DNA from: Bigelowiella natans CCMP2755
Taxonomy: Eukaryota; Protista; Cercozoa
Direction: 5' to 3'
DNA: 35,446 nt
NCBI GenBank assembly: GCA_000320545.1
Contig: ADNK01001867.1
Coordinates: 1 to 35,446 of the forward strand
This document shows positions 2,708 to 34,148 of the stretch, in pieces. The notes under the pieces are model-generated. The model had not been told where the DNA came from. It worked only from the letters and a program-made list of their open reading frames with translations, and did no database searches. A program made the translations under genes and the position numbers. Position 1 is the stretch's first letter, and every line of letters begins with the position of its first letter.

Positions 2708-2734
2708 ACACCAGCAAACAACTTACATATTGTG

Positions 2735-2789
<55 letters not shown>

Positions 2790-3423: not shown

Positions 3424-3463
<40 letters not shown>

Positions 3464-7171: not shown

Positions 7172-7309
7172 TGCCTTGTGCTTGCCTTCGTCGATCACAC
7201 ATGGTGCAAGCATACTACTACTTTGTAACTTTCTGACATGTTATCCGATATGACAATATAACTATCTAATAAATTCTAATAAATTACATTCTATCGATAT
7301 TCATCCTAA

Positions 7310-7700
7310 TGTAGCTGTGCAAAGCAGTGGCTACAGTGCCTATGTAGTATTTGTTTGTTTCTGCTATTATATGGCGCATGAATGCAAAAGCATCCATCTA
7401 GCCGTGCCAATAAGTCGTTGTGTCGCGCAGTGCGCGCAGCAGTGCGTGCTTCCGTTTCGGTTGTCGTCATTCGTTGGCTTCGCTATGTGGCACCAGTCAA
7501 TCACATGTATGCTCTGTAGGTGTACGATCATTATTAATCTTATTCACGCGTATCGCATAGACGCAGCGCATCTTTGCGCGCAAGCAGACACTTCGCGGCC
7601 GCCATCGCCTGTCTATGAGCTCTCAGCGCTCAGCGCCGGCGCACGCATCAACTGCTAGCACATTCTACGCTCCGTCTAGCATGCTTAGAATTAAAAAACG
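7310..7700. other. Pyrimidine-purine/short-palindrome-rich spacer between convergent genes
   Basis: Dense GCGC, TGCA, AGCT, CATG and CTAG; no spliceable ORF; lies between a + gene 3' end and the oxidoreductase stop at 7971. Confidence 0.6.
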
Positions 7701-7970
7701 CTCTAGGCATTGCTTTACCCAAACACACGAAGCTAGACGACTTGAAATATTAATAAGTATCGTATCTGGGCGTAGCCGCTCATTTGATTTTTAATTTATG
7801 TAACTCGATGCGAACTGCAATTACTTCTCGGATTGTACGCATCGAAACTTTTTCAAAAATCAATGTCACAAGTTACCAATCGACTGCTAATTACCTGCAA
7901 TAGTAAATGTAGTACATGAATGTCGTTGGACGTATAGCCTTACTTCTTGCGAAGCTTACTATCCCATTTT

Positions 7971-9741
7971 TCAGTCTACTTGAATCTGAACCCTCTCGCC
8001 GCCCTTTCGAAAGCTTTTAAAGCAAGCGTCAAGCACAATCTTCGCCGCGTTTCGTTCGTGCACACCAGAAGAATCCGGGCCCGAATATATGAGAACACAA
8101 GGTAAGTTAAGCCATGAATAATTCGAAAAATGTTTGAATACCAAAGAAATTCGATCGGGTGTGTCAAGAATCGATGTTACTGAACAAATTCTTGTATTTG
8201 CAGCAGGAAGAAACCAACGGGAAACGTATACGCGAACCCAGATGTTTCAAGAATTATCATGTTCATTTTTTGTCGCTGTTGCCAGTCACACCTGTGTCTT
8301 CAGTGCAATTGATGGCCAAAATTTATCCGGCTGATACAGGAAATACGTCTCAGTAACAACATTAACGACCCATCATAGTATGGTAACAGCAACTTATCTT
8401 CTTCAAAATAACACATAGCACTATAGTCCTCAGCCAGATTCGATGGCCCCGGCAAACCGCTATACAAAATTTGTCCACGGAAAGGAGGCCTAACCTTATG
8501 CATTGCCGCTGCGAAGTGCCGAATGCAGTTTGCCTCTTGCACGTTCTGTTTTTTAAGACATCAGAGGGTGGCCATTACGATGGTGGTCATGGTTTGAGAA
8601 GAAGATGATGACATGACGAAGATGTTGGCGATGAAGATGTGGATGACGATGGTGGTTGGATTCACCTTCTCCACGCTCACTACAGATTCCTTATCTTCAA
8701 CGTCGAACTTCTTCGTATCAAAATCCTGTCGTTGGTATATTCAGTGTCATTCGCTGTTATCCCACCCAGTTGTTCACGAATATGTGCATAATAACCAGAT
8801 ACTCGCTATCACCCCACAGTTTTCCTTGTCAGCTACTATTTTCGATAGCACGTGTTGCACGTACCCCCCAGGATCCTTGGATTATCGAGAATGTGTCCTC
8901 AGCCTTTGCAATGACGAAGTTCGGAATATGAACTTCCCCCTACGAACAAAGAAGCATCGATAAAAAATAAAGGAGTATCAGTCTACTGTGGTTTCATGAA
9001 AACGCCTGGCGATGACGGTGATGATGGCGATGACGATGAAGAAAATGTTAGGATCTGAACGTATCATCACCTTGGTGCCAACGAGCCGCGCCCATTGCCG
9101 CATGCAAGAGTTGTTGAATTCCGCATCGAATCGGCCAATTCTTCCTGAAGAGAAGAGGTAGGTAGTATCCGCAAAAAACATCGGAGAACATCCACAGAGG
9201 AAAGAGAGGAGCATGAGAACGACAAGAGGAAAATACGTTCGAAAGGGACCCTCAGGAGGAAAGAGGAAAAGAGTTCAGATGAGCTCACTTTTGGTGTAAA
9301 CAAATATTCTCTGTTCCCCCCCTCCCTTTTCCCTTCTCCTTCTTCAAAGCAGGTAGCGACGACCATCTTCATAGAAAAGGGTGACTTGGACATTTTCGAT
9401 AACGCTCGATTGCCATCCCTCCTCTATGCTGTTCGACTCCGCTCTAACTTCTTTGGGCAGCTTCCACCCAAATCCCCACTTAACACAACCATATTTAGGA
9501 AAAAACAACAACAACAACAACAACAGCGACAACGACGGCCAACTCAGCATTAAGTTAATATATCAACAACAAAGCACAAGCAAAGCGTAGACTCATGATG
9601 CAGAAAGAGGATGAGAGGCAGATTGGATGACGGTTGAAATGATGAGCTACCAGGGTAATACGAATGTTATACCAGCCAAGATCCCCCTGGATGCGCATGA
9701 ATACATTAAAATGGGTAGAGCGTGTATATTCATATATGTGG

Positions 9742-9779
<38 letters not shown>

Positions 9780-11043
9780 CACGCAATACTAATTGATGAA
9801 AGATCAACAAATCATTCACCTGAGAAACTTCTGTGTGTATGTGTGCGTGTGTGTGTGTGTGTGTGAAATCTGATGTCATAATAAGTACGATAGTTGTACC
9901 AACGCGCCGTAGGGCTCAAGCTTCGGATTGTAGCGAATGTTCGTTTTGTCCATTGGTCCCGTCGCAAAGGAAGAGGTCACCGCTCTAATCTCCCCCACCT
10001 ATCTCCCATACGTTCCACCAGTACATTCGAGCAGCCCGCAAAATAAGGAAAAAAAGATGGGTATTCGCATGTGGCAGAGATATTGCCAGAGGGCAAGTTA
10101 TTTGCTCGAAGGCGACCTGCTTCGTAACTTGGCCGGATTCGTCTTTCTGGTCTGTTAACATCGGAGTGACTACAACCAAGCGGTGAAACTATGAGTGATG
10201 TCTGGAATGACAGCAATAAGGATCTAGGGGCGGGATCAACCATTGTTGAGGATCTTCTGCAGCCGAGGGTTATGCATCATCATGACTCCATCCATGAATT
10301 GGACTCCATTGTTTTGGGCTGCTTCTATCATCAGCTTGACGTCCTTCACCCCATTCATCGGCTTTTCCACCTAGTTGTCGACAACGAGAAGACAGGGTCA
10401 GTGCTTAGGTCTCACTGAAGCGCACCGAAGACAGCCGTTTACCAAGACGTGCTTCTTCTTCTTTATGGCTTTCAGAACCCATTCGGTCCTACAAAGAACG
10501 GATTGCGTGTTAGCATACGCCAGCAACAATGAACGCAGGTCTTCTCACCTGAGAGCGGTTGGAAGAGAAAAATAGACTGCATTCAAACCTGGGTGATCCA
10601 TCATTTTGTCGTAGTCATCCTATCACAAAGTACAAAAATCACTCAACGGGCAGCTCCGAATGCATTTTGCTGCACGGCTTGCAAAGTACGTATGGCGTGG
10701 GCTTCTTGGAGCAAAGATTGCAGTACTTCTTTGCATTTTCCATTTTACCGCGACTTGCAACGGCCGCCACCTGTTCCAAAAAGAGCTAGCCTCCTCATCG
10801 TTTCTCGACAGGAGATCTAGGTGTGTGATACTACTACTCTGACCTCGTGGCCAGCCGTCTCGATGGCATGGATCCACTTTTTCGCTAAGGGGGGAGAGAA
10901 AGAACGGGTTAGCTTTCGACCAGTACACCTAAAGGCGAATTGCATTCGAGGAAAAATAGACCGATGTATCCGAGGCCGACGATCCCGAAGCGGATCACAG
11001 CCGGAAGCTTTGCGTCGCCGACCTGGTGCGCTGGGGCGGCCAT
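7971..11043 (-). CDS. Gfo/Idh/MocA-family NAD(P)-dependent oxidoreductase, about 16 exons
   Basis: Spliced peptides in order: MAAPAHQVGDAKLPAVIRFGIVGLGYIA (Rossmann GxGxI), VAAVASRG, NAVYFSLPTALR, KKKHVL|VEKP, VQFMDGVMMMHNPR, NIRYNPKLEPYGAL|GDLGWYNIR, WKLPKEV...LFYEDG, LVGTK|GEVHIPNFV, VQEANCIRHF, DKFWPSIALKTQ|IVLDACFKS...VQIQVD*. ATG at 11043, TGA at 7971-7973. Confidence 0.92.
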
Positions 11044-11185
11044 TTTGGGTGTTTAATTTGTTGTCGCAGATAAAAAATCCCCTATGTCTTCCCAGCACAA
11101 AGCAGCCCATTTGTTCTGAATGAAGGAGAGCGAGGACAATTCTTGTGCAACAACAACAGCAGCAGCGGCAGCAGCAGAACTAGCA

Positions 11186-11394
11186 ATGGCCTCCCTCCTT
11201 TTCGTCCCTGCTTTTAAGGTTTGTGTAGCCGTCGATGCAGCCCGTTTCGCGTCAAAGCGGACGTTAAAATAGGGGTCAATTAGAATGATAACAAAACTTT
11301 AACAAAACGAGGTTTGAAGACTGAAGACATAAAGACTCCTGGCATTGATGCATTGATACGTTCACGCTTCTGATCCCAATTCCTCACCTTTCCT

Positions 11395-11456
<62 letters not shown>

Positions 11457-12442
11457 TGCACTTCAGAAGATGATCTAAAACGTGACCATTTTGACATATC
11501 TCACTCATCTCTCATCTCAAGCCAAATCAAGAACTTGTCATGAACCTCAAAATGAGGCGTCGACTTAAGGAAATAGATGCAACAGATAAAGAGGTACTAT
11601 TCTTCGCAAACTTTAGATCATGAGCATCCCTCTTTTCTCTATTATGAATGTATTAGCTCGTGTTCCTCAGATTCTGGATGCACTAAGACAATGTAATAAC
11701 GTTGGGCGGAAGGCAATTGCACTGTTGAAAACCGGAAAGGTAATTCTAATTCAATGATGTAAGAACATACTACTATGTGTTCAAATGATGATGCTGAACT
11801 TACAAATGCGACTAATTTTCATTCTTCATTGTTGCAGGTTCCAACGCATCGTAAAGGAGAATCAATGACAGGACTCGCAAGTAAAATAAAACCCAAGATT
11901 TTTCTGTTTTCGTGAAAGCGACCTACTTCATGTGCGTCTCACTCACATGTAATTACTCTCATGTTTCCGTTTTCCCTTTATCGCATCCATACGACAGACA
12001 CAATGGCAGCAAACATTTGTCACAGCACTCCGAGAAATTCTCTCGATGCAGGCGATGCACGGTCCTCGACAACTCTAGGTGGACATGTAGCAGAAGATGT
12101 GAAATCGACTGAATCATCGGCCGAAGCAAAAATAAATGATGAAATTATGTCAGAAGGCAAGATTTGATCACATTGATTGGTCTAGTGGCGTTGATCTTAG
12201 GTGTGACGTCATTTCATCAAATGAACAAACGACACAGCGGCAACGCTGTAGCTTGAAATGCATGAACTAGAACATGAATTGAAAATTTCACGCTCAAATA
12301 GGCGTGCTAGCGTGTGCAAGAATACATTACCACTCATTGCTTGCTATGGAGAGAAGTTCGCCGGCAGATGGTACTCCGACGGCTGAGAATCATGAGAAGA
12401 GATTGCCACCGATGTGAGATTCGAAATCTCCTGGACTCTTAG
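11186..12442 (+). CDS. Small multi-exon protein with a UBA-like helical segment
   Basis: GT-AG exons: MASLLFVPAFK|PNQELVMNLKMRRRLKEIDATDKE|ILDALRQCNNVGRKAIALLKTGK; the AL..CNN....A..LL pattern resembles UBA domains. 3' exons are ambiguous. Confidence 0.45.
11398..11456. repeat. (CA)n microsatellite
   Basis: Directly visible run of more than 25 CA units. Confidence 0.95.
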
Positions 12443-12510
12443 TAGCTATTACGAATGTTGATCACACCTGCAGCAGTGCGTAGTACGCTCGCCATTCGTC
12501 GCGGCCTAAT

Positions 12511-13400
12511 CGCCGCTGGTTGCCCTGCCCCCCGAGCGCAAGGGGTGCTAGCTAGCTAGCAGGGCGTGTGGAACGAGCCTGAAAACCGAGGTGGTCTAGT
12601 CTAGTAGTGGTGTGGGTGAGCTGTGTGCTGTTGCCTCCTCGCCGTTCAGCCTTCCTCGTCAGAGGCAGGGAAAACCATTGAGTCTGAATTGGCCGAGGGG
12701 AGTGAGAAAGTGGAAAAGCGTGAAATGGTGTGCTGCCCTGTGCTCCTTCGTTGACCGGTCCAACGCCCTCTAGCCCTCATTGGCGACCCTCCTGTTGTCA
12801 GAAAACGTCCATTTCCTAGCACCACCTAGCCGCAGAACCATCACCGCTCCCTGCATTGACGATGTTTCGAACGCCGTCGATGCCACCAGTGCAACATTGC
12901 AAGGGAACAACGCATTGTTCAGCTGGATGGAGGGTGACTTTCATTCATGTTTGCACGCAGTTCATGCACACAGTGGCCCACGCTAGCACACTCCATGCAG
13001 CTACGCTGTGATGTGATGCACTGATGCACACCATATCTTCATCATCTTGTGTGTCTAGTCATTACCAATTGTTCAGTGTTCTTGGATTGCATCATTCGAC
13101 AGGCGGGTTCGCGTGTTCGATTTGACAAAAATTGGACATGTTCCCATGCACATGCATTCACAATGCCACGCTCATTTTTTGTGCATGTGTGTGTTGACTG
13201 ACGTGCGAGCAGTTGTGCAGCATCGGCTGCGCGCATGCTGAGCCGTGCAGCACTAGAGCATCGCAATCGTCAGTCTGTCTAGCTCTAGCTAGAGCTCTAA
13301 CGTGTCACGCGTGACCACGCTGCATTGCTAGATTGCAGCATTCATCGATCAGCCTTCGTGCGTTGTGTGCGTTTGTGCAACTAGCAAACAACAACGCGCG
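12511..13400. other. TpA-depleted, CTAG-retaining domain (hypermutated-looking intergenic DNA)
   Basis: Hand count: 21 TA dinucleotides in 890 bp, 16 of them inside CTAG. Confidence 0.85.
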
Positions 13401-13639
13401 GTAGCTATATACTTGTGTGCACGCGTGCACATCCATACAAATCGAAGCTTCGCAGAACGAATTTGCGCATTTCTAGATTTGCTTTGCCCGTGCGCATGAT
13501 CGATCAATGCGCTAGAATGCACTAGTGCATGATGTAATGTGTGGCGATGACATCGCGCCTGCTTTAATCGTGCGATTCTATTAATTTAATATGCGTGTGC
13601 AGAGTGGAAGGAAGAGAACGTGACATGAAATGGACAAAT

Positions 13640-13870
13640 ATGAAATGTTTCCTCATCAAGAGTTCAACTCAAATCTCGTATCAGTATTTGCTGATTTTTC
13701 CTCGTGATTTGGTACGCTACTTATTTTTACGATGAATTGATTTCTTCTCCTAATAGTTCAATTTTCAAGAAGATAGCTCGATAATAAGGTCATGTGAGCT
13801 TATGTTTGTGCCGAAGATATATTCCTGTAGTAGCACAGGGATTGTCATTCACTATTTCATTATCATCATA

Positions 13871-13921
<51 letters not shown>

Positions 13922-14830
13922 ACCCTCTAAATCTCACTCTGTTATTACATACCTACGAATATAATGGCCGAGATAGCCAATCCCACTGTAAGAAAAACTA
14001 GCTGGAAATATAACTCATATGACGGAGTAACCGGAAACTAGAAGAGAGCACAGAACGCATCCACTGACGTTTGCAATCATACATGCAACACAACATATGA
14101 CTGCAAAGGATTTGATCAATGTAGTGACACACTAAAATTCAAGGCAAACCTCTCCAGTTGAGCAACATGAGAATATCACGAAGAATATAACCTGGAAAAG
14201 ATTATAGAAATTCAATCCTTAACTTGTACACAATAGTACTGTGCATTATTTTGGATATTACCACGCTGCCAATTATCTTGTCGAACAGTGACTCTTGACA
14301 CATGGCCAATCGGCTTTCTAGCCAGTGAGCAATTCTCTGCGACAATTTGGAAGGTATCGATTAAATACAGCAACAAATACACTAAAACAAATACACTAAA
14401 TCTCACGACAGAGGAAACTTGTAATGTTTCAAAGTGGAAAAGTTTTGCATTGTTGTTCATGATGCTGCCTCAAGTTTGCGACATTCTGCGCCACTCACAA
14501 CCCAAACTTGTATGTACCCTCCCTCTCCCTGAACCGACCTCTCTGCGGAGCCAGGATTTGCAAATAAATGATGGTTCTCGAGACAAGGCGGAGAGCCAGT
14601 CGCAATGTAAATATAGCCTTGATATTTATGTATAAATTATTATACAAACATTGGTAATTATTTCTTAAAGACAAGTAAATATGGGTTACATATCTCAAAA
14701 CGGTGGCCCTCTTAAGTGACATGTATTTCTTTCTTTTGCATCTGATACGAGTAGGGTACGCAAGAGGGAGTCGGCGTTTAGGGCTTCCGAAAATATCTGG
14801 TTGATGTCGCAGGCTAGAGATCCCTTCATT
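13640..14830 (-). CDS. Possible multi-exon gene of unknown function, divergent from ferredoxin
   Basis: Minus-strand splice-like signals (gtaacc, gtaat and gtaggtatgt donors; tcaag and tccag acceptors) bound short open segments. No consistent protein could be assembled. Confidence 0.3.
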
Positions 14831-14900
14831 TGACGTTTCAAAATAGGAATTACTCCTGAAAAGATTATTTCGGCAATACGTCCGAGCTTCCGCAAAAACC

Positions 14901-16232
14901 ATGTCAGCTCTGTCTCTCAGGTTACCCTCCCCTGCCAGAACAGACTTTTCGATTTTGGTTCGGTTTCAGAACAAATGTGTACAGATTCATTCGAACTAAT
15001 AGCATTGGTTATAGCTAGAATTGGATGTTGGGAGGACAGTGATCGTAGGGTGTTAGATTGTTGGGGTACCCTATGTTGTCACGTGGAAGCTTAAAAAATA
15101 AACACCTATCTGTGAATATGTAGCCTCGTCGTCAATGCGCTTCTTGCCGCTCTTCTAGTTGTAACACTATCATCTTCGTCATCTCTTTCGTCCGGCCTCG
15201 CTCGGAGTCGCATCTCCAGCCGATCCAGTCTGAGCAGCTTCAGATCTCCACTGTCCCTCCAAAACCGAGTATGCCACCAGGCCAGCGGAACCATGGCTAG
15301 GTAAATACTTAGAGAAAAAATCTTTATTTAGGTTTTAGAAATTGTTGTAACGTGGCTAAATGCTCTTTGTATGAACGCAAAGGCGTGGGGTGTCGGTGAA
15401 TGGCCAAACGTACAAGGTTACCCTGAAAACTCCTGGTGGGGACCACGAAATCGAATGTCCAGACGACATGTGAGTCACCTCTTTACATATCTAAATCAAA
15501 ACACAAATATATGATGTTATCATCGCATTGTTGAAATATAAAGACAAACGTATGGTATGAGTTTTGAGATGTGTTATGGGTGTGTTGTTTGTTGTGTGTT
15601 GTGTGTCGTATGTGTTGTGTGCTGTGTGTCGTATGTGTTGTGTGTTGTGTGTTGTGTGTGTGGTATGGAAAGGGGAATACATGTTTGTGCGTTTGAGTGT
15701 TCACTTTTTAATGAGCGGGTGAGTAAGTGAATGTGGAGTATATATAAGTTGTATATCACGAGCAAGAGGAAATATTAATTTGAATAGGTATATTCTTGAC
15801 AAGGCTGAAATGGATGGAATTGCTCTTCCGTATTCCTGTAGAGCTGGTATCAATATAGAAAATTGAAAGAAAAATCTATATCAAGCTAACTCACAAACAA
15901 CAGGATTTTGCATTTCCTGTGCTGGAATCATGGAGGACGGCACCGTAGATCAGAGTGATCAGACATTCCTGAACGTGAGAATGAATTTCCTAATTTATAT
16001 AATCTAAATACTACGATCTTCATATGCCAGCTAAAAAGATATTGTACACATTATTTTAGGAGGATCAAGTGAAACAAGGAATTGTTCTTACTTGTTTCGG
16101 TACTTATTCCGCCTGTATTGATCATCATACCTCGCGAAAGCTTATGCTTGTTTTTTGTTCCATTCCTATTCAGCTCGACCGACATCTGATATGACCGTCC
16201 GTACTCACGTAGAAAACGAGCTGTCCTTATAA
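14901..16232 (+). CDS. petF: Plastid-targeted plant-type [2Fe-2S] ferredoxin with bipartite presequence, 7 exons
   Basis: Exons 14901-14920, 15124-15300, 15383-15469, 15788-15846, 15904-15974, 16060-16099 and 16174-16232 splice to MSALSLSLVVNALLAALLVVTLSSSS (signal peptide), an S/R-rich transit-like region, then [95 protein letters not shown]. All four Fe-S cysteines are present. Confidence 0.96.
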
Positions 16233-16299
16233 ATTGTGACCTGTGAATATTTAAAATCACAAAATACTAAAATCCATTGGAGTTAATTGAAATATTTAA

Positions 16300-17000
16300 G
16301 TATGCCAGTAGATGCTGGCTATGGAGACATAAGTGCCTCGCATAAGTAAAACTAGTCTACGTGCACACGTAGTTAATACTACAGAACAATGCGCTATAGC
16401 TATTAGCGTGTAGGGTAGGTGCCATGCACATTGCATGTACAACAATAAGCAACTCAGCGTTGCAGCATGGCATTGCACTCACTATTCTGTAATGTATAAA
16501 CTTCTATTTGTGGCACCACCCAGTATCGTACGTACGGTACAGTTTGTGGCTGTGACAATGCTAATTAATGATGTGATGATGTGCGCTTGATAATGATGTA
16601 CACACCTGCATAGTTGCCGCAGGTCGCAGAGCTAGCCCTAGCAGAGTAGTATCCATGGCGTACATGCCGCAGAGATGACACAGCCTTGCCAACAGATGTC
16701 GGTATTACTGTCGTAGGCATAAGCTATATTAGGCTAGTAGGGTGACCATTGGAAAAATCCAACCATTTCTCACATATGCGCAGGCCAAGCTGGCACAGAA
16801 ACAGCTAAGCACGTATTATAGTGAAAGCATTACTAGCGACTAGATTAGCACGCTACGCTGAAAATGTCTAGATTTAGAGCCGTTGTGAATATATATGCAA
16901 TGAGCATCGAGCTATCGCACCGACCACCGGGTTTACAAATAATATGCAGTGCCTATTACACGTGCATAGCATGACATAGACCTAATAATACCGTTTACCT
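16300..17000. other. Pyrimidine-purine/short-palindrome-rich spacer between convergent genes (TpA retained)
   Basis: Dense TGCA, ACGT, GTAC, CATG, CTAG and AGCT (e.g. ctacgtgcacacgtag, cgtacgtacg) between the petF and phosphatase stop codons. Confidence 0.65.
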
Positions 17001-17225
17001 CTGTAGTTACCCCATTCTTCGGTATTAAACGATTGCTTCAGACCCTTGTAATCTTGTAGGGGCACAATAGGTAATCAAAGCTAAGAATTCAAATCTGTAT
17101 GATCTGCATGTGGGAAAAATGTTCGTTGTTATCTATTCACTATGGAGGTGGTTCTGACAGCTAAATAAATACTTAGTTGTTAGTACCCAATCATCAGGTA
17201 CTTGCATCGCTGCTTGTAGATTGGC

Positions 17226-22115: not shown

Positions 22116-22149
<34 letters not shown>

Positions 22150-23388
22150 CGCTGCTACTAATACTACTGCTATTACTACCGCTCCCTTCACTAGTAAGTT
22201 CTGCGAGGAAGAAATCTCTACAATCAACCATTATCCCACTACAACTCCCCAAAAAAATGGGAGGGGAGAGCAGCGGCGACAATCTCATCATAACGATGAT
22301 ACTCATCATCATCTACAAGAGCAGCAGCAGCCCCAGCGACAAAGAGAATCCTCCGTTGACTGTGTCGTGTCCAAACACCAAAGCAAGCAACAAGCACCTT
22401 GTGATGGGATTGAATCAAAGAACCATCTCACACACACAGGAATAAAGCGGGAGACTATGCAACATAGTAATAATAAAAATAGTAATAATAACAACAACAA
22501 GCGCCAACGTCATATGCAGCGGCAGGAGCAAAAGCAACAGGGAATTCGAACGACCTTGATGAGCACAAAAAAGAACAAGGTGTTTGCGTTTCACTCACGT
22601 ACAAACCTCATTATCACCAGGGTAGGAAGAGAATACGGTGCTTGGGCGACAATTGATATCGTTGATTTTCCGGCTTTGTCGCGAATTTTGATCTTCTGTT
22701 ACTGCCGACCGCCGGTTCTGCCGTGTGCCTCATGTATCAAGCTACTCATCGCATGTATTTTAAGAATGTTATGCTGCTGCTGGTCCTGCTGCTGTTGTTG
22801 GTAATTGATGGTATAGGTTCAAATACATCGATGGTTTCGCTGCATCAACTGTTACAAATGGAGGTAATAACATTGCTTGCACCTATCACCGTGCTCGTTC
22901 TTCCTGCATGCGTGAGTAATACCCCACACATGGATGATAAGCCAATAATGCCCCAAACACGTTACTCGCACATAGACGCGTACCGTTGATGACTCCTTTC
23001 GAGTCGATGTGGGAAGATTGGACTTGTTCAAAGGCATCGTGGACGTCAACAAATTGCACCTTTGCCGAGGAGGTGAGGACTGAATGATGACCATGGGTTA
23101 TGAATTATATGTGATGATAGATCGACGGACATCCTCCATAATTGTTATTTATCCACCGATCAATTGTTAGGAACTATCTTCGAATGAACGCGTTCTGTCC
23201 GTCCGAGAAGCGCAGAAGTACTACGAAATCGAAAGGGTACAATTTTTTAGTGTGATTGGAGTAGAGTGAGGAGGAGGAGGTGGTGGTGGTGGAGGAGGGG
23301 AAGCAGTAGACAGGTTTCAACTCCACCAAATATCAAGATGATGGAAGATATTGTTTAGTAAATTCAACACACACACACATACACACAA

Positions 23389-23431
<43 letters not shown>

Positions 23432-24873: not shown

Positions 24874-24999
24874 CTAATATCTCACCCTATGTTAGAAATA
24901 CTGGAAAAGAGACAAAATCGCAGGATGACTGTACGTAGATATATAAGACTCACTTCTATATTTTGTTATGACATTGTATAACTTTAAATAATAACTATG

Positions 25000-25460
25000 C
25001 ATAGAGTGCGCTTGCGGGCAAACTCAGCTCTGGTGCTGCAAATGAATCTTTATTATCTGCTAGATTTGCCGGCCAGCTAAAACATATGCTAATAATAATA
25101 GCCTATACATTCGCTGCCAAAAATGCAGCTATCCAGTGCGACGTTACAAAGCTAGAAAGAGCAAGCAAGCACCTAGCTGTGCAACAGCATGTACTGAGTG
25201 TCTCGCGCGCTACACCTAGACATACGGATCGGATGTACAGGTTTGCGTCTGGCGCTGGATGTCATCTCATTGTGCTAGCTATACGCACATCAGCTGTATG
25301 ACGCAAGATGAACATACAAACATTACACATGTATATACATAAGTGTCCATATAAATAAATATATGTACATCTAACACATACTAGCACATACAAATAATGT
25401 GACGCTTAAGTGTACATGTAGAGCATTTACCAACGACGATTATTCCTTACATACGCGCAA
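25000..25460. other. Pyrimidine-purine/short-palindrome-rich spacer between convergent genes (TpA retained)
   Basis: Repeated AGCT, CTAG, GTAC, CATG and GCGC plus tacat runs between the ARID gene end and the 25550 stop codon. Confidence 0.65.
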
Positions 25461-25549
25461 TGTAACGGGCTTTATTTCGGTTTTCTAATGAATTATGAAC
25501 TTCTCTCATCATCTAACTCGGCCGTCTTTTGAATAAAATATGGTCGTAG

Positions 25550-26525
25550 TTACATCTTTAACTTTATTGCTTCCACAAGTTGTGTTGAAATCTTTTGATA
25601 GGCTTTAGATTCCTGAACCACCTCTTTTATTTTACCGGCGGTAAAAGCATCTGAGTATGTTGATCAAGGTGTTAATTGTTGACTTTCTATTTTATTTCTC
25701 TTATATTCGGAAATTATTTAAGTGAAACCTTGAAGGGGTTGAATTTTTGACGATATTTTCTTCGCTGCTTCAATCTCGTCCCTCAGTTTTGTTTCTGTAG
25801 ATTATCTCGTGTTTAATTTAACACCTTTCATTTGAATGATTTTTCACCTTGTTCCTTCATTTTTGTTTTCATGCTCTGAAGATTCCAAATTTTTTTGCGA
25901 AGTGTTTGGATATCCTAACGAAGAATACATAAGTACGTAGTTGTACTTTAATTTGTATGTATTACTACTTTTTCTGAGGGTGCCTCTGAGGTTTCGTCGT
26001 CTATGTTTTGGCTAGACAACAGTATATCTATCAACTCTTGGCCAAAACCATCGAATGATTCTTGGATTGATTTTTGTAGCGTGTTTGAGAGTTCATCCAC
26101 ACACTGTAAATATATTTCACAACATTTCTCAGCCCTCAATCTGTTCTATTTTCGCAAGGACACAACGCACCTTTACAACTTTTGGAGATTCATCTTTTCC
26201 AACAGCATCTATAATTTCGACCTCGATCTTATCCATTGCATCAAGTGCTCTCTCCTCTACTGCAAGTTGAAGATCTTGAGCGATGACCCGAATCAGTTCT
26301 TCCTTCTTTTTCTCATCTCGTGCTGAGGATTATTCATTACACTTATTCCATCTCATTCATTTCTAATGTTTGATATTATTGCTACATTTTGCATCCGATT
26401 TTTGTTTCTTATTAGCCTCCTTCCCCTGTGCTTTAGATCTTGGACTGCAGATTAAAATGACAAGATGTACAGTCAGTTACTGAATCCGCACAGCTTCAAG
26501 CAATATACCTTTTCCTTTTCCCCAT
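25550..26525 (-). CDS. Small charged coiled-coil protein with a basic N-terminus, multi-exon
   Basis: MGKRKS|PRSKAQGKKEANKKQKSDAK..., ARDEKKKEELIRVIAQDLQLAVEERALDAMDKIE, RAEKCCEIYLQCVDELSNTLQKSIQESF and last exon DAFTAGKIKEVVQESKAYQKISTQLVEAIKLKM*, separated by short AT-rich GT-AG introns. Confidence 0.65.
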
Positions 26526-26890
26526 CTCAATGTTGTGCGGGCGAGGTTTTAGAGCTCTTGGGTGTCCTTTTTTAAGTTGTTGTTGAAGGGCAGTGCTGTC
26601 GTAGTTTTCGGATGAATTCTCAGTTTGATCCTCCACAACACCACCGGTCTCCATTTCTCATAATTCACCTTAATTCAAACTGAAACCACCCATGTGATTC
26701 CTAACGGAAACCAAAAACACATATGATTTCCGCAATGCGGCAATCTATAAGCCCTGACGCAGCATGGAATCTTTCGACGTTTAGCACATTCACAAAAGAT
26801 CCCTACATTGGAATTCCGAAAAGCTATGATGCTTCGTTCCCGCCTTTTTTTTTGCTAATTTCGACCAACGACACCGATTTGCTGGTAGTG

Positions 26891-27603
26891 GCGGGAAAGA
26901 GTGTCTTTTCCAGAGATCCTCGAGAGATCATCTAGTCCTGCTTGGTGCTCCCTCGGGCTGTTCCGAGGATCGTCGCTTGGATGTGTGATGTGGCCTTCAG
27001 GAAGTTCCTGCTCAAAGTGCATGCTTTGCGTCGCCGCCACATTGCTGCTAGTCACACTGCTCCATGACAGCTAGTGTGCCATCATCCAAATCCTGCTGGT
27101 CTTGCCACTTCACCAGTCAGTCCAGCAGTCCTCACTAGAGCTAGTTCGAGGCACTGCGTTTCGTGCACTGCAAACGTCTTGCAACGTTTTTGGAAATGCA
27201 GCATTTCATCATTGTCTGGTTGGAGGACGGGGAAAGTGTTGGAAAGCACGGAACAGCTGAGTGGACAAAGATTGCACAAGATCAGCACCTTGAAGTTGAA
27301 CATCGCATCGAAATTGAGACTCAAATGAACAAATGAACTCATGCGATGCCGATGCGCGTGCACCACCATTTTGTCCGAAAGCTAGCTAGCAAGACTGACA
27401 CACGCACACTAGCACGTCTGGACGTGCTCGCACAGCACACCGCAGTGCAACAGATTGAGTTCCAATCTCGCAGAAGCGTGACAGATCGACGCACGCTCTC
27501 TAGCGCTGTCTCACCACGCAGCCACGTTGGTTGACAAGACACATGATACGCTAGCAATGCACGGCCAACAAGTTGGTGGTGCAGGAGGGCGCCATGCATG
27601 CGT

Positions 27604-27639
<36 letters not shown>

Positions 27640-27770
27640 ATGCTCCAAGCCTGCAAGGTAATTCATCAAGCAAGCATGGCAGTGAGCCAAATTGCTGATG
27701 AGGCAATGCTTGGTTTCATCTGATGATGGATGATGCACAAACGTCGACACAAAGACCTTTTCTTCATTTT
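26891..27770. other. TpA-depleted, CTAG-retaining domain
   Basis: Hand count: 12 TA dinucleotides in 880 bp, 10 inside CTAG; the exceptions are ATAC at ~27547 and GTAA at 27659. Confidence 0.9.
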
Positions 27771-27830
27771 GTTTTTAGTGGCATGGTTTCCTAAAATTCA
27801 TTGTGCATCATGTTCAACTGGTGATCTAGC

Positions 27831-29427
27831 TCAGTTAGTTTTCCAAGATTCTTTATCTCCACCGGGATACCCCTTGGTCATCTTTTGCGCAGACTTCATA
27901 GCCTTATCGGGAGAAGAGCGTTCAGGTAAATAAGCGTTAACAAGTTGTTATTATTTACTACCATAGACCAAAGCATATGATGTACATACATATTATGAAT
28001 ATATGTATGTATATATATATATATATATACATATTATATGTATTTGTGTGTGCTTGTGTAATATATCTTTTATAAAAGATATTTTATACTGTGTCTATTG
28101 TTACTGGTTAGCTGAGTAATAAAACTTACTTTGTCATAATAGTCTGAGTAGTAAGTTGAATGGTAGTCAGCGTAATAGCTGGCATAATAAGTCTCATAAT
28201 ATCGACTTTCCAATCTGATTGTGGGCGAAAAGGATAAGATAGGGAATGAAGGGAGCAATATAAACAAAATTTAATTAGAGTAAAAACGGTATCGGAATAA
28301 TATGAATGCATATGTCCGTGCATCTGCTACTTCCTCCTACTTCTGCTCCTACCCTGAGCGCTTCGATAAAGCAAGCGTGGCTGTGAGGGTTACGGCATGT
28401 GATACGGCCGTGTTGATCGGCGAGATAAGCGCATCCGCCACTTTGCTTGCCACCTTATATCCGTTTTAACAAGATATTCATTCAGTAATGACCCAACTTT
28501 AGATGAAGATAGAAAGAGAAGGGCGGCTGCTACTACTACTATTATTACTACTACTACTACTAATACTACTGCTACCTTCACAGGAAGTTCTTGCTTGTAC
28601 GTGACATCTTCTGGGATGTAGCGTCTGAGCATTTCGTATAGATGGTCATGCACACGGCGTGCAACGGGCTCATGTGCATCCGCTATGATGGCCGGAGTTA
28701 TCACATTTGTCAGAGACGGTGTCAGTCTCTCCACGATGCTCTTGTTCTGAGGAAGGGAGATGCAATATGTTTATTGGGAGGGCGGTCCCAGTGGAAGAGG
28801 AGGCAGCGTGTGCAACGATAAAGGCCGCAAAAGAAGTACGCGCGATCCTTTGTGTTTCTATCATCATTTTCACACAGATATCGAGATAACAAATAGTGTT
28901 GCCCCCCGACAGCATCAACTATTGCTGCTGCTACTACTACTACTACTATAACGACATATACCAGGCGATCTTCCAGATAAGCGGGAAGAGGAATAACCCC
29001 GGATTGCTTCGTCCCAACGACTCTGAGCACCTCCTTGGCCACCTTATAATATTATGATAAGTATTAATACTACTATTCATCATCCTGTAGCAGTATCGAC
29101 TGCTCCATTAATCAACGGCTCATCGATAATTGCCCAAATTATCAGCCGACGCCTACAACCACAAAACAAATTGCACCACGCATGAATGCATGCACGCACC
29201 TTCTCTGGGATGACGGAAAGAAGGCCCTGGATCATATACTCAACGGGAGCATCTTCACTGGCCGAAGTGACGATGGCAAACGCCTGTACGACCATGGCAC
29301 CAAGCTTACCTAGAAGGCCCTCGAAGACCTGCGACGCGGCTTCTGACCGCTATAGAATGATTTTTTAGCAGTACCGAAGAATGGGAGAGGGAGGACAATA
29401 CAGATATTTCGTATTTTGTATCATGCG

Positions 29428-29466
<39 letters not shown>

Positions 29467-31320
29467 GTCTGTGGCGCACACACACATTATCCATTCAATT
29501 CTTCATCCATATAAAGAAAGATAATGAAAACATCATCCATCATAAGGAATCCCGGAAATGTAATACGACTGGAAAGGAAATATCCTTTTTCTCTCGTTAT
29601 CACATAACACAAAACAACAGTGAAAGCAGCAAAATTATATGCTCACACAGGTATTGTTATTACCATCATCATCATTAATATACTCATCTTCTTCATCGAT
29701 GAGAGTTTTTCTTCTTCTTTTTCTTCTTCTTCTTACGTGAGTCTCCAGCAATGAGAAGTCGTCTCGCTCGTTGTAGTAATATCTATCGTTTTGTATTTCC
29801 TCTTTTACGTTTCCTCTTCCTTCTTCGTCACTATCTTTGCCGGCCCGACCTCCTCTCCTACCGCCATCTTCAGCAAAGTCATCCTTTCCTACCGCAGCAG
29901 GGGTGGTGCCGTTGAGACTAGTTGTCCTTCGCCGCATTATAATCACTTCGCTAGATGGCTGGTGGAAACCACTCTCAACAATTCGTATCATTCTCAGCTT
30001 TCTACTAGTTGCGGTAGTCGTTGTGGCTCCCCTTCGCTTCGCTCTCCCCCCTTCCCCCTCCTGCGGTCCCGAATCCAAAGAAAATTCGCAATCCCGTAGC
30101 CTCAAGAAATTTATTCGTTTCTTCTTTCCACCTCGCTTTACTCTTTCCGTCCTAACTCCTCCCCTTTCCTCCTCCTCCTCCTCCTCCTCCTCCTCCTTAT
30201 TGCAGCTGTCGCTCAATACAAACAAATACGGGGCTTGAGATGGTTTGGCGGTACTACTACGACGACCATACTCCAGCTGCCAGATATCACTTATCTCCTT
30301 TAAAGGATACCAAGATGAAGATGAATCTTGTTCCCTCCCCCTTCTTTTTCCGACTCTACTTCGATGGTAGAGTGGGAGCAAAGCGCCAGTTGCGAATGGG
30401 ACTCGGCGGTTTCTTTCGAGAATGGAAGCAGTGGAAGATGATGATACTGATGAATTTGACATCGGCGGTTGTGAAGATGATAATGATGATGATGGAGGAC
30501 GGTATTCAGAATAGTAGGTCTTGAAAGAAGAAGTGTTGACTGCACATTGAACTGCTAGAGGTATCTCATTGACCGCGTCGTCGTCGTCGTCCTGTCGACC
30601 CCTCACCACCACATTAACGAATGCGACACGCGCTCGACACATCTACACATATTTGTAACAGGCAAAATTAAATAAAACCAAAGAGCAGAATAAGATTTCA
30701 CAGACGCCAAAAAATATACAAAAATGCAGATGTGTTTTCATCATGATCGCCGTTTGAAGCTTACCTGTCTTAGATCTTGATCAAATCCTGGAGCAAAATA
30801 ACGTATTCTTCGTGTGGCAATTTCCACCCGATGGTGTCGAGAGAAGCTGTTTGAGATTTACATTGATTATTTCGTAGCTCTCAAATAAGGCATGATGGTG
30901 TTGTTACCGGGATTGCTTGGAAAGCGCTGTTGGATGATGTTGGCCCGTTAGGATCAGGAAGTGCAAGAAAATGATTGGAGAGAACAAAATTAAGAGGCCC
31001 ATCACTCCTTAAAAAAGGGGAGCACTCTGACTAAGTCGTCATCGCAATGACAGCCATTGTCCCCTCCCTCTCCACATTTGAAAGTTTCGAATATTTCAAT
31101 TACGAAATGGATGGTTCGCTCGTGGTAAACATCGGGGATTCATATAATTTCCCCGCCTTTCTTTTTGTACATTTTCGATCTCGGTTTTTCTTCGTATACC
31201 GGAGGATTCGACTTTCTAAGCGTGAAACCACCTATGTTTTTCTTCCAGCGATTGCCCTTGTGATTCCGAACATTGCTGTTCGTAGACTCCCAGATCATTG
31301 GGGTTTATTGTCTGCGACAT
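27831..31320 (-). CDS. Uncharacterised multi-exon protein with a helical C-terminal region ending in a periodic YYxxYY motif
   Basis: 335-aa ORF 29635-30642, then in-phase exons RSEAASQVFEGLLGKLGAMVVQAFAIV..., VAKEVLRVVG...EDRL, NKSIVERLTPSLTNVITPAII..., VASKVADALISPINTAVSHAVTLTATLALSKRSG, LESRYYETYYASYYADYHSTYYSDYYDK (28130-28214) and AMKSAQKMTKGYPGGDKESWKTN* (stop 27831-27833). The 5' end is approximate. Confidence 0.75.
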
Positions 31321-31871
31321 ATTTATCTTTCAGAGATTCCCCAGAGATCCATCAAAAGATGGATCCCTTTCAACGGATGACAAGCGTTTCCTTTCGAATA
31401 TCAAAATTCTACCGTTGTCAGCTAATGAATATTGGCATTAAATGATAAATATGAATATTCTTGATGTCGTTTTATAATAAGGATTTGCATTCAATCCTAT
31501 AAAACAGAAGGCTTGTCTCATTCTTCGTCTTAATTAGAAGACCTAACGCCCAGTTCGTCCCCCCCCTTCACATGGCCTCACTCACCTCAATTCTACCGCA
31601 TTTTTATTGAACACCGTCTAATTTATTGACTGAGAAGAATAAGTACAACATATTGTTCTTTTCATATTTCAGTTACTTAAAAAGTGATTCTTTTGTATTC
31701 TATTTAAGCTATTAGTTACAAGGAAGTAATTTGAGACTATCGGTAAGAGGGGTGATATATACTTGTTATTTTTTTTGGCAGAAGAGGCTTTCGAGTTGGT
31801 TCGACATTCTGTTCTCTACTGATTTCACAGCTCGACAACATTGAGAGCGTGAGACAGACGACATTGTTGTA

Positions 31872-33097
31872 ATGTCATTCGCCAGTAGAGTTCCAGATTG
31901 GGCTAAACATGGCCAGAAAAAAAACTCAGAGATTCCAGAAGGCTACGTTCTTTACGGCAAAAAAAAACAAACATATGCAAGGTAATATTCCTTTTAAAAA
32001 AATGTCAGGGAGCAAAGGGCTACGCCAATCCCAATCACTACGAGATGATTAGCATAATTTTTAACATAAATGTATGCAGACCATACCGTCCCCATGGCAC
32101 GTTTAAAGCTTTGGAAAAAAAGGGCGTTCTTCACACGGCGAAAGTCGTAATCGCCGATAAAACCAATCGAGAGTTGTATGCAGAAAAGTTGCACCATATA
32201 TTTAATAATTTTGAGTATGACTAAGGATGATTTGATGCACTTTCAGGACTATAAGCCTGTTATAGCCCCACCTCCAAAGGGAATGATGCCAGGATATACA
32301 GGGTAATAAGTCAGAGCCATAATATTATAATACAAATTATCATACTGATGAACGAAGAAAATCTCGCTGCCCCAGTAGATGAGGTTATTATTAATTTGGA
32401 TCGCAGATATATCCGTGGTAAACAGCACCTGTACGGAAGGAGTTATGGAGCTGTGTCTCGTCTTTCCGCCACAACAAGGTGCATTCACTTTTGCAGATAA
32501 TTATCTTCCTAATCTGCGTTATAATGAGAGAAAGGAAATTAAGTTTCTTTTTCCTTTCCATTTTACAGCACGAAAGAAAAGTTAATGAACCCAAGCGTGC
32601 CCCTCGGACCTCAATATGAGATTCCTACGTTAGACGCGACAAAGTGAGAAATGAAGACGACAATAAAATTCAAATTGCTGGTGTACCAGCGGCAAGAATG
32701 TATAATAATATTGCTTCTACTGCAGGTTTGATAAAATTCGGTCTGCGCAGAATAACGCCTATCCCGTTCCAGGATATTCAGCGAGAGAAACGAAGAGTGA
32801 GCTTGGAATGCAACCGAGGAGAGTTATGGTATTACTGTAGTAGAGCTAGCTGCACACTTGTGGCCCTATTTATCAGAATCCAGCTTGTAAAACCACTATT
32901 GTATGATGTATCACATTAACGTAAAATTTTGTCGCTATGTATGGTACTAGTCTTCTCGTCGTGCTCGTCAGAACCTCAGTGAACTAAATCGTGGCGCGGA
33001 GATCTATACAAGATTCCGGCAAACTATTAACTCCAACCCTGTCCCTGGCCAGGTGATGTTAGTGCTTTATGCTTCACTTTTGATTCCTTTGAAGTTG

Positions 33098-33135
<38 letters not shown>

Positions 33136-33299
33136 TGGTCTCTGAAAAAGTCTTCATGATCGAAAATGGCTATCATACAAACGAACGTTCTTCTTTCTTT
33201 CTTCGTATTGTTTGACTTATGCGTACGCAGACTAAATACGAACAACCGAGGAAAGTTATTCCATCAAACATGGCCCACTTGCAATACATTTCTAAGTAA
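31872..33299 (+). CDS. FAM166/CIMIP2-like PGYTG-motif protein, candidate ciliary microtubule inner protein
   Basis: Spliced MSFASRVPDWAKHGQ...; PPKGMMPGYTG|YIRGKQHLYGRSYGAVSR matches the PGYxG(Y/H)IP...xG(K/R)(T/S)YG repeat; second YPVPGYS; last exon TKYEQPRKVIPSNMAHLQYISK*. Confidence 0.7.
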
Positions 33300-33329
33300 A
33301 GGAGGGAGGTAAATAACGCTCAATTCGAT

Positions 33330-34148
33330 GTAGCCGTAGTAGTGGGTTGCAGTCTGATGCTTGACCCAAGAGATTGTGGTGGATAATTGAAGGAGTGGTA
33401 ATGAGCACAACTTTGGGGTGATGTGCATTTTGCATGCCCATCAAAACGCAGCAAGGAATGTTTTCTCATACGTGGTGTATCATTAAATGTGTACCAAATC
33501 ACACTGTCAAAAGTATGCAGAAGATGAAGCGCATGCTGCGCATGCTTAGATCTAAAGATGCACATCATTTGCGCACGCAAGCATGCATATGTACGTGTGT
33601 GTGTGTGTGTGTGTGTGTGGTCGTAACATTGCTAACAGCCTCTGCAACTCAAGACAAAGCCAGCCACCTGGAAGCCAAAGAACACTTTTTAGCGGTTTGG
33701 CGGGCTACGCTAGCGGATCGAGTGCAGAAATGTGCATGCATCATGCCATGCTAGCATGCCCTCGCGTGGTGCAACGTAATAAGCTACACTGCGTCCTCGA
33801 TTCGCGATCTTCGACCATTGTTGTGGCTGATCGTTGACCATATAACCATTGTGGCTGAGCTAGCCAAATTTGCGACACCATCGACCGCCACAGCAAGTGC
33901 CCGTAGCGTGCATAACAGTCTGTCACCAGAGTCAACGCGATGAAGGGCCATGCACAGTCAGCGTCATGCAATGCAAATTGCACGCGACTGACGCACGCAC
34001 ATGCTAGCTAGCTAGCATGGCTAGATGGCCATGGAGACTCTGGTCACGCTAGCACGCCTTGTGCATGAGTTCTGGGGTTGCATGCCAGCCGTGTTGTAGT
34101 CCACAGTGCTAGATTCAGAGTGTGGTGCACGTGTCAAGTGGTTGTTCA
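33330..34148. other. Pyrimidine-purine/palindrome-rich spacer downstream of the FAM166-like gene, TpA-depleted in its distal part
   Basis: TGCA, CATG and GCTAGC dense; 33916-34148 has 7 TA, 6 of them inside CTAG. Confidence 0.65.

What the first reader, a model, noticed from the sequence alone, without database searches (positions are those of the whole stretch)
7250..34148. Near-strict alternation of gene orientation with a stereotyped YR/palindrome-rich spacer at each convergent junction
Seen: gene order is - + - + (-) + - + - [gap] - +. The tail-to-tail gaps (7310-7700, 12480-13620, 16300-17000, 25000-25460) and the spacers at 27340-27700 and 33330-34148 share a texture rich in TA/CA/TG/CG steps and AGCT/CTAG/TGCA/GCGC/GTAC. 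Head-to-head gaps instead have ordinary A/T runs. Some spacers keep TA (16.3 kb, 25 kb) while others have lost it (13 kb, 27 kb), like stages of one process. Known analogy: base J marks convergent termination regions in kinetoplastids. Inference: convergent terminators here carry a distinct chromatin or DNA mark that shapes their mutation spectrum.
Basis: partly seen in the sequence, partly recalled or inferred. Interest (0 to 1): 0.72.

Follow-up and report, generated by a model that had tools for sequence, protein, structure and literature searches.

The report
TA-erasing mutation zones between convergent genes
In the alga Bigelowiella natans, genes here alternate in direction and the mostly silent gaps between their tail ends share one odd base pattern; in three gaps most TA steps are gone and those left are mainly in CTAG, likely because a recently reported anti-foreign-DNA mutator works inside these small gaps and skips that one motif.

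Summary
The window is B. natans nuclear DNA. RNA and Pfam put 11 genes in the order - + - + - + - + - - + (9 of 10 neighbours alternate, p=0.011). Six spacers of 0.3-1.1 kb downstream of mRNA ends share a texture: purine/pyrimidine alternation 0.61 against 0.45 in head-to-head gaps, with high GpC and CTAG. Each exceeds every same-length background window.

The texture has two layers. (1) TA loss in three spacers matches the TpA->TpG/CpA hypermutation published for B. natans viral inserts. What is new is that CTAG is spared (37 of 59 surviving TA, against 51 of 1656 elsewhere), that the sharpest erased edge lies at an mRNA 3' end, and that the affected spacers hold repeat DNA or LTR insertions. 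(2) The shared alternation cannot come from transitions and is unexplained.

Base J is not supported. Convergent orientation cannot be separated from 'silent DNA past poly(A) sites' with one window. Verdict: new variant of a known kind, interest 0.6.

The parts
1..4950 (-). Gene 1, protein kinase (tyrosine-kinase-like), intron-rich; 3' end outside the window
   Evidence: Pfam PF07714 E 7e-5 on - frames; no stranded RNA
5530..7300 (+). Gene 2, unknown protein; AATAAA at 7268 and 7278
   Evidence: X23 + 7.93 vs - 0.34 at 6885-7401; contigs end 7237-7288
7306..7713 (.). Spacer S1, convergent, TA kept
   Evidence: X15 depth 0 at 7402-7918
7738..11386 (-). Gene 3, oxidoreductase of GFO/IDH/MocA type by eye (recalled motif, no Pfam hit); ATG near 11043
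   Evidence: CT..AC joints and X23 - reads; translations
11460..12508 (+). Gene 4, small unknown protein; 3' end at 12508 in X15
   Evidence: GT..AG joints, X23 + 10.1
12509..12950 (.). S2a: TA-erased DNA with ordinary alternation (0.47), likely an old insert; 397 bp without non-CTAG TA (12605-13002); LTR junctions at 12717 and 12814 in two RNA runs
   Evidence: loose ends; no protein match
12951..13601 (.). S2b: spacer texture with TA largely erased, TA returning towards gene 5
13600..15100 (-). Gene 5, unknown; 5' end abuts gene 6 (one contig spans both)
   Evidence: five CT..AC joints, X23 - 11.9
15120..16515 (+). Gene 6, 2Fe-2S ferredoxin with a leader peptide; stop near 16230, 3' UTR to 16515
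   Evidence: five GT..AG joints with X23 + reads; Fer2 E 0.064 on one 24-aa exon
16302..16981 (.). Spacer S3, convergent, TA kept; first ~200 bp inside the ferredoxin UTR
17000..19100 (-). Gene 7, histidine acid phosphatase, in the cluster of jgi Bigna1 138634
   Evidence: X23 - 2.88
19800..25000 (+). Gene 8, large intron-rich gene (PHD- and ARID-like motifs by eye, recalled, no Pfam hit)
   Evidence: GT..AG joints, X23 + 5.2, contig end 25000
24995..25426 (.). Spacer S4, convergent, TA kept, single-copy DNA
   Evidence: covered by one 3358-nt X10 contig
25450..26670 (-). Gene 9, unknown; AATAAA on - at 25471
   Evidence: X23 - 3.15 and 4.8
26886..27338 (+). S5a: TA-erased multi-copy repeat with weak + RNA; start of a 661-bp stretch without non-CTAG TA (26886-27547)
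   Evidence: X10 summed depth 13761 at 27165 vs about 65 single-copy; paralog variants
27339..27643 (.). S5b: spacer texture with TA erased
27780..31000 (-). Gene 10, low expression, unknown; ends approximate
   Evidence: X23 - 0.68 and 0.19; ORF 29635-30642
31500..33512 (+). Gene 11, unknown; 3' ends 33458 and 33512
   Evidence: seven GT..AG joints, X23 + 16.9
33528..34148 (.). Spacer S6: texture with partial TA erasure, strongest next to the LTR; holds repeated pieces
   Evidence: X10 loose ends at 33759 and 34000
34149..34474 (-). 3' LTR (TG...CA) of a young, highly expressed Ty3/Gypsy-type element; poly(A) site at 34227; polypurine tract 34475-34485; TA not erased, 0 CTAG among 24 TA
34526..35446 (-). 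Integrase C-terminal half of that element
   Evidence: 100% identical to Bigna1 models on several scaffolds; gag-protease-RT-RNaseH-integrase order

Best explanation
The spacers are mostly untranscribed DNA between the 3' ends of alternately oriented genes, and they likely form a separate mutational compartment in which the B. natans TpA->TpG/CpA mutator acts locally while sparing CTAG.

Shown: the gene order, the texture, its position past the mRNA ends, TA surviving mainly as CTAG in three spacers, and repeat or LTR DNA in or beside those three.

Inferred: (a) genes sit in close head-to-head pairs, so tail-to-tail gaps are almost the only DNA free of promoters and transcripts, and transposons land or persist there; (b) an insert seeds a silent domain, and TA is erased in the insert and the adjacent spacer up to the transcribed DNA; (c) CTAG resists on both strands, either because of its unusual shape or because it is methylated or protein-bound; (d) back-mutation of CA/TG to TA, which could stick only in CTAG, enriches CTAG; (e) a slower process that is not a transition (shrinking of homopolymer runs, transversions or selection) builds the R/Y alternation and GpC excess shared by all six. 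Step (e) is the weakest.
For: Species and process: (Bigna1); bioRxiv 10.64898/2026.01.13.699255, parts 1-4 of 5 read, reports TpA-only A>G/T>C hypermutation in two viral inserts and TpA-depleted transposon-like CDS.

CTAG sparing: 37 of 59 TA are CTAG in the lost spacers, 18 of 150 in the kept spacers, 51 of 1656 in the rest and 4 of 245 in introns (lost vs kept p=6e-13; the lost boundaries were trimmed after inspection). Counting both strands, TA fills 74 of 106 C-YR-G sites but 0 of 66 T-YR-A and 2 of 54 C-YR-A sites, and CCAH (72) is about equal to CTGH (76), so neither flank alone protects. Stretches of 661 and 397 bp have no non-CTAG TA where about 37 and 22 are expected.

Paralogs: of 7 substitutions listed between the 27 kb repeat and its copies, 3 give TA where the window has CA/TG and 2 make or break CTAG.

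Boundary: frequent non-CTAG TA stops at 12507 and the X15 transcript ends at 12508.

Stages: 90% in-silico erasure of the kept spacers gives alternation 0.63, GC 0.53, GpC 1.73, CC 0.49, AA 0.84; the lost spacers show 0.63, 0.53, 1.64, 0.46, 0.83.

Transposon link: LTR at 34149; multi-copy repeat at 27.0-27.2 kb; contigs of two RNA runs join S2 to exact LTR termini at 12717 and 12814.
Against: Transitions cannot change the R/Y pattern: all substitution-only simulations (context-specific transitions plus uniform transversions) stay at alternation 0.49-0.51. The models that reach 0.60-0.61 need assumed run deletions, and they give CpG rho about 0.3 (observed about 1.0) and CTAG 3-4 per kb (observed 11-18). 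The erasure test over-predicts CA/TG (1.96 vs 1.72) and under-predicts CpG (0.73 vs 0.97) and CTAG (11.5 vs 17.8 per kb). Paralog variants have no outgroup, and three of them (27017, 27040, 27063) share one depth value, so probably one contig. One paralog has CCAG where the window has CTAG, so protection is not absolute. The young LTR itself keeps its TA (rho 1.17). S2a could not be shown to be a transposon. About 200 bp of texture is transcribed as ferredoxin UTR, and S5a has + RNA. The preprint saw ongoing hypermutation only in two large viral regions.
Confidence: 0.55

Rival explanations
1. The shared texture is selected. Flexible, A-tract-free, CTAG- and GpC-rich DNA would act as a two-way termination zone or chromatin boundary between facing genes, and CTAG survives TA erasure because it is functional.
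For: CTAG density is nearly constant (1.2-1.7 per 100 bp) while TA varies five-fold. The texture starts at or near mRNA ends. CTAG is reported as uniquely flexible, mainly intergenic and mutation-resistant in other genomes (PMC6511876, passages). The LTR, which must terminate transcription, is also GpC-rich (rho 1.59).
Against: No 10-bp periodicity in 5 of 5 signals tested and irregular CTAG spacing. No shared alignable element between spacers beyond about 20-bp words. CTAG is as dense in the insert-like S2a and S5a as in host-like spacer. AATAAA signals lie outside the texture at two gene ends. The LTR has no CTAG.
Confidence: 0.2
2. The spacers are transposon graveyards. The texture is inherited from decayed elements, and orientation matters only because inserts are tolerated there.
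For: Repeat DNA in S5 and S6, an LTR at S6, LTR junctions in S2, and short shared pieces at 7302-7335.
Against: S4 is single-copy and fully textured. The identifiable insert-like parts have ordinary alternation (0.47-0.48) while the host-like parts have 0.62-0.65. The active element's coding DNA has alternation 0.43.
Confidence: 0.12
3. Positive supercoils from facing polymerases would concentrate topoisomerase II here, and its 2-4 bp duplications at alternating or AGCT sites would build alternation and create CTAG at the junctions.
For: Top2 mutants make 4-bp duplications, with AGCT the commonest in human tumours (PMC8795545, passages). Five of 28 period-4 arrays in the spacers are of the AGCT/CTAG class against 4 of 136 elsewhere. 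Perfect 10-bp palindromes number 20 against 8.5+-3.0 expected, with no excess in the background. The preference of Top2 for alternating DNA is recalled; that paper was not held.
Against: The period-4 excess is the same in spacers (28 vs 16.9), introns (15 vs 9.9) and background (136 vs 86), so it is not spacer-specific. The model does not explain TA loss.
Confidence: 0.08
4. A base J-like modified thymine marks convergent terminators and shapes their mutations.
For: Position at convergent ends. A modified T in CTAG is not excluded.
Against: The units are single spliced genes, not polycistrons. J lies near G-quadruplex-forming sequence (PMC4344527, abstract), whereas the spacers have fewer G/C runs (8.5 vs 14.7 per kb) and no G4 motif. 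None of the 15 papers listed for JBP/TET/base J names Bigelowiella (listing only).
Confidence: 0.03

Closest known systems
TpA-restricted hypermutation of integrated viral DNA in Bigelowiella natans (Mettrop et al., bioRxiv 10.64898/2026.01.13.699255)
   Same: Same species; TpA lost to TpG/CpA; linked to silent and transposon-like DNA.
   Different: There: 25-186 kb viral inserts and clusters of at least 3 kb, with de novo mutations seen. Here: domains of about 0.4-0.9 kb in ordinary host spacers, with one sharp edge at an mRNA end and CTAG spared. The main text has 0 mentions of CTAG, LTR or trinucleotide context; supplements were closed.
Repeat-induced point mutation (RIP) of fungi (recalled; compared in the preprint)
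   Same: Dinucleotide-specific transitions confined to silent or repeat DNA, with some spread into flanks.
   Different: Opposite direction (RIP turns CpA into TpA). No evidence here of a homology trigger or a sexual stage, and single-copy spacer DNA is also changed.
Base J at convergent strand-switch regions of kinetoplastids (PMC4344527, abstract)
   Same: Located where opposing transcription ends.
   Different: No polycistrons, no G-rich or G4 context, no evidence of the base or its enzymes; J is a termination mark, not a known mutator.
Head-to-head gene clustering in compact protist genomes (Chromera, Vitrella; PMC4501334, passage)
   Same: Excess of closely spaced divergent pairs, which forces alternation of orientation.
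   Different: No matching statement for B. natans and no spacer texture found in my searches.

Membership tests
B. natans TpA hypermutation | Occurs in the B. natans nuclear genome | tested here: met
B. natans TpA hypermutation | TpA depletion with CpA/TpG gain | tested here: met
   S5a rho TA 0.18, CA/TG 1.51; S5b 0.43 and 1.81; S2b 0.57 and 1.73
B. natans TpA hypermutation | Direction TA->TG/CA shown by variants | tested here: inconclusive
   3 of 7 paralog substitutions are TA against CA/TG, no outgroup
B. natans TpA hypermutation | Targets foreign (viral or transposon) silent DNA | tested here: inconclusive
   S5a is multi-copy and S6 abuts an LTR, but the origin of S2a is unproven and the young LTR is not erased
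B. natans TpA hypermutation | Ongoing rate about 1000-fold above background | not testable with these tools
   needs de novo mutation data
Base J termination mark | Polycistronic units ending at strand-switch regions | tested here: not met
   single intron-rich genes with their own 3' ends
Base J termination mark | G-rich, G-quadruplex-prone context | tested here: not met
   no G4 motif in 3992 bp; G/C runs 8.5 vs 14.7 per kb
Base J termination mark | Glucosyl-hydroxymethyluracil in DNA; JBP1/2 and JGT genes | not testable with these tools
   no modification data, no genome held
Fungal RIP | CpA->TpA with TpA gain in repeats | tested here: not met
   repeat-bearing spacers lose TA
Ty3/Gypsy LTR retrotransposon (element at 34149) | TG...CA LTR, polypurine tract, order gag-protease-RT-RNaseH-integrase | tested here: met
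   RT and RNaseH hits come from the 37%-identical relative P0039
Nucleosome-positioning array | About 10-bp periodicity of WW, SS, TA or YR steps | tested here: not met
   p 0.38-0.98 for 5 of 5 signals against 100 shuffles

The most novel reading that the evidence does not exclude
B. natans splits its whole genome into transcribed head-to-head gene pairs and thousands of tail-to-tail 'editing zones'. In these zones a DNA adenine deaminase runs against all TpA, while a CTAG-specific mark (for example 6mA, which would block deamination) or binding protein protects one motif. That would be a eukaryotic modify-and-mutate system, like restriction-modification, that also writes the terminator landscape and receives the active Gypsy element.
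Probability: 0.15. Interest if true: 0.85.

Novelty: new variant of a known kind. Interest (0 to 1): 0.6.

Why it matters
The enzyme and the targeting rule behind TpA hypermutation are unknown. An exempt motif (CTAG) and a domain edge at an mRNA 3' end give two direct handles. One is a substrate rule for testing the proposed ADAT2-like deaminase in vitro. The other is a specific site at which to look for a base modification in long reads. If the pattern holds genome-wide, the mutator is not confined to large viral inserts but shapes ordinary intergenic DNA, which would affect any neutral-site or composition analysis in this lineage. The shared alternation texture remains an unexplained, strongly position-linked signal.

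Tried and rejected
No genome held. No tRNA or Rfam hit in the window. The spacers are not copies of one element: self-BLAST gave short words, palindromes and one 40-bp CA-rich match.

More B. natans DNA: the metagenome scan with an LTR end gave 1 contig, the internal 5' LTR and gag, with no insertion flank. Ten viral 16-mer hits were chance (0 of 10 align further). Genome contigs gave 0.

S2a looked like a reverse-transcriptase relic by eye (recalled motifs), but Pfam, PDB, Atlas and viral searches gave nothing significant, and the HMMER representative search never ran (queue full, 8 tries). The S5a peptide had no homologue; one weak 21-residue viral hit was not followed. The single-sequence fold of the integrase tail had pLDDT 35 and was not searched.

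Rejected or unsupported: nucleosome periodicity; decayed microsatellites as the main source (alternating runs near geometric, with a small excess at 10-12 nt); spacer-specific short duplications; Dcm-like CCWGG decay (CCTAG in 2 of 37 CTAG); a one-flank block of editing.

Literature: ten searches (listings only unless stated) found no description of the spacer texture, of CTAG sparing or of a B. natans methylome. Term look-ups in PMC12695648, PMC8887012, PMC6461891, PMC4738411 and bioRxiv 2026.05.21.726589 gave nothing on it. Four papers were not held, and I did not look up the B. natans genome paper. bioRxiv supplements were closed; the preprint's mutation table could settle the CTAG question.
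Full report
Source. The window is intron-rich eukaryotic DNA with many microsatellites. The phosphatase exon at 18158-18934 is 100% identical to a 512-aa protein whose cluster holds jgi/Bigna1/138634, labelled Bigelowiella natans; the nearest named relative is Amorphochlora at 55%.

Gene order. X23 is 3'-biased and sense-stranded: + reads carry the GT..AG ferredoxin joints, and - reads carry the poly(T) end of the retrotransposon at 34227. Signal switches from + to - at 7.3/7.7 kb, 12.5/13.6 kb, 16.5/17.0 kb and 25.0/25.46 kb, and intron polarity agrees wherever joints are listed. With Pfam for gene 1 the order is - + - + - + - + - - +, 9 of 10 pairs alternating (p=0.011). The gap between the two - genes holds weak + RNA over a repeat at 26.9-27.3 kb. 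Gene 11 (+) faces an LTR element on the - strand. Divergent partners are close; one contig spans the 5' ends of genes 5 and 6.

The texture is real. Pooled R/Y alternation is 0.607 in six spacers, 0.450 in six head-to-head gaps and 0.515 in 27 introns. The five named 4-mers run at 5.1, 0.96 and 1.3 per 100 bp. Each spacer beats every same-length background window on both measures, and a leave-one-out order-2 model separates 6 of 6. The shared features are GpC (rho 1.5-2.1), CA/TG, CTAG (10-18 per kb against 1.4 in introns) and loss of CC/GG, GA/TC and AA/TT, with AG/CT unchanged. Six of seven 3' UTRs have alternation 0.51-0.54; the ferredoxin UTR, at 0.61, is the exception. So the texture starts at or near mRNA ends. 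It has no 10-bp period, and the spacers are not copies of one another.

Layer 1, TA erasure. A 2026 preprint on this species (parts 1-4 of 5 read) reports about 1000-fold hypermutation of two viral inserts, all at TpA to TpG or CpA, and TpA-depleted transposon-like sequences. Its main text does not mention CTAG or LTRs. S2, S5 and S6 fit this signature. Erasing 90% of non-CTAG TA from the three TA-kept spacers in silico reproduces alternation, GC, GpC, CC and AA values of the TA-lost ones; it over-predicts CA/TG and under-predicts CpG and CTAG.

CTAG is spared. Of surviving TA, 37 of 59 are CTAG in the lost spacers, 18 of 150 in the kept spacers and 51 of 1656 elsewhere (lost boundaries trimmed after inspection; untrimmed counts are 19/38, 5/7 and 9/35). 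Counting both strands, TA occupies 74 of 106 C-YR-G sites but 0-10% of each of the other nine flank classes, including 0 of 66 T-YR-A sites. CCAH and CTGH are equally common (72 and 76), so the whole palindrome is needed. The longest stretches without non-CTAG TA are 661 bp (26886-27547) and 397 bp (12605-13002); outside the spacers the longest is 163 bp. In S2, frequent non-CTAG TA stops at 12507 and the X15 transcript ends at 12508; in S5 the TA-poor zone runs to about 27776, near the end of gene 10. Among 7 substitutions between the 27 kb repeat and its paralogs, 3 are TA against CA/TG, 2 make or break CTAG, 1 is CG against TG and 1 is unrelated; there is no outgroup. In simulation, sparing alone gives a CTAG share of 0.24; adding faster CA/CG-to-TA/TG back-mutation gives 0.54-0.67, close to the observed 0.57-0.77, but it drives CpG too low. 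Why CTAG resists is open. It is a structurally unusual, mutation-resistant tetramer in other genomes (PMC6511876, passages), or it may be methylated or bound. That 6mA blocks TadA-type deamination is recalled. Earlier AI notes on diatom genomes report survivors in TTAA and CTAG (unchecked leads). Here TTAA does not survive, so the rule looks narrower.

Transposons. The finding ends at the first base of a TG...CA LTR (34149-34474) with a polypurine tract and an integrase ORF that is identical on several Bigna1 scaffolds; the domain order is Ty3/Gypsy. It is very highly expressed and keeps its TA. Contigs of X17 and X16 run from gene 4 into S2 and then into the two exact LTR termini, at 12717 and 12814, in opposite orientations. 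I read these as two further insertions absent from the window, but they come from RNA contigs, only 24 of 102 loose ends were shown, and insertions in genes would be selected against. S5a is multi-copy in DNA. S2a and S5a have ordinary alternation (0.47-0.48) with full TA loss and high CTAG, as expected for inserts that were erased but have not yet acquired the spacer texture. All three TA-lost spacers carry such links; S4 is single-copy and keeps TA. S1 and S3 were not checked against a DNA run for repeats.

Layer 2, alternation, is not explained. Transitions leave the R/Y pattern unchanged, and all substitution-only simulations stay at 0.49-0.51. Adding protection of GpC and deletion in homopolymer runs gives 0.60-0.61, which shows plausibility only. 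Perfect 10-bp palindromes are in excess (20 against 8.5), partly through CTAG arrays. Short tandem duplications are no more enriched than in introns. Selection on spacer structure and topoisomerase-made duplications remain rivals.

Orientation. With alternating genes and tight promoters, tail-to-tail gaps are nearly the only silent DNA, so 'convergent' and 'downstream of poly(A) sites' are confounded. The single tandem gene junction (27 kb) also has the texture but contains + RNA. One window cannot separate these.

Comparison and verdict. The TA-lost spacers work like the published B. natans mutator and probably belong to it; rate and direction were not shown here. They are not RIP (opposite direction). 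Base J fails two testable features. Ten literature searches found no report of the texture or of CTAG sparing; subscription journals and bioRxiv supplements were out of reach. New variant of a known kind; interest 0.6.

Noticed in passing
window 34554-35263 (+): Spliced antisense RNA inside the Gypsy element: GT..AG joints on the + strand (34554-34619, 34682-34848, 34886-34943, 35140-35263), with contig depth up to about 25000 and a few + reads in X23. No long ORF in the joined form. Possibly a regulatory antisense transcript.
   Followed up: partly
window 12717 and 12814: RNA contigs of two runs join the S2 spacer to exact LTR ends in opposite orientations: likely independent new insertions 97 bp apart, hinting at a hot spot or targeting.
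   Followed up: partly
window 34529-34930 (-): The integrase carries about 130 extra residues after the SH3-like part, conserved in a 37%-identical relative (P0039), with no Pfam hit; a candidate targeting domain. Single-sequence fold failed.
   Followed up: partly
window 34149-35446: The element dominates X23: 104,565 reads were laid on the second half of the window against 1,009 on the first, mostly on the LTR.
   Followed up: no
window 27145-27333 (+): A 63-codon frame after a CTAG that could be a splice acceptor, inside the multi-copy repeat; Atlas recognition 2305 but no homologue found.
   Followed up: partly
window 12603-12983 (+): Frame with motifs resembling a reverse-transcriptase core by eye (recalled); not confirmed by any search.
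   Followed up: partly
window 27042 and 34011: An X10 contig joins sequence like S5a to sequence like S6 with 28 letters between, so the two spacers may hold pieces of one repeat family.
   Followed up: no
window 7302-7335: A ~34-bp stretch at the start of S1 is shared with several unrelated RNA contigs: a short dispersed repeat near other 3' ends.
   Followed up: no
window 5749-5881 and 5908-6040: 133-bp direct duplication (90%) near the start of gene 2.
   Followed up: no
window 31958: RNA contigs of X15 and X17 have one extra A here, while the X10 DNA contig does not; unexplained.
   Followed up: no
L001 1129-1167: Primer-binding region of the Gypsy element, with a 5-nt gap between the LTR and TGG, in a metagenome contig; priming tRNA not identified.
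   Followed up: no
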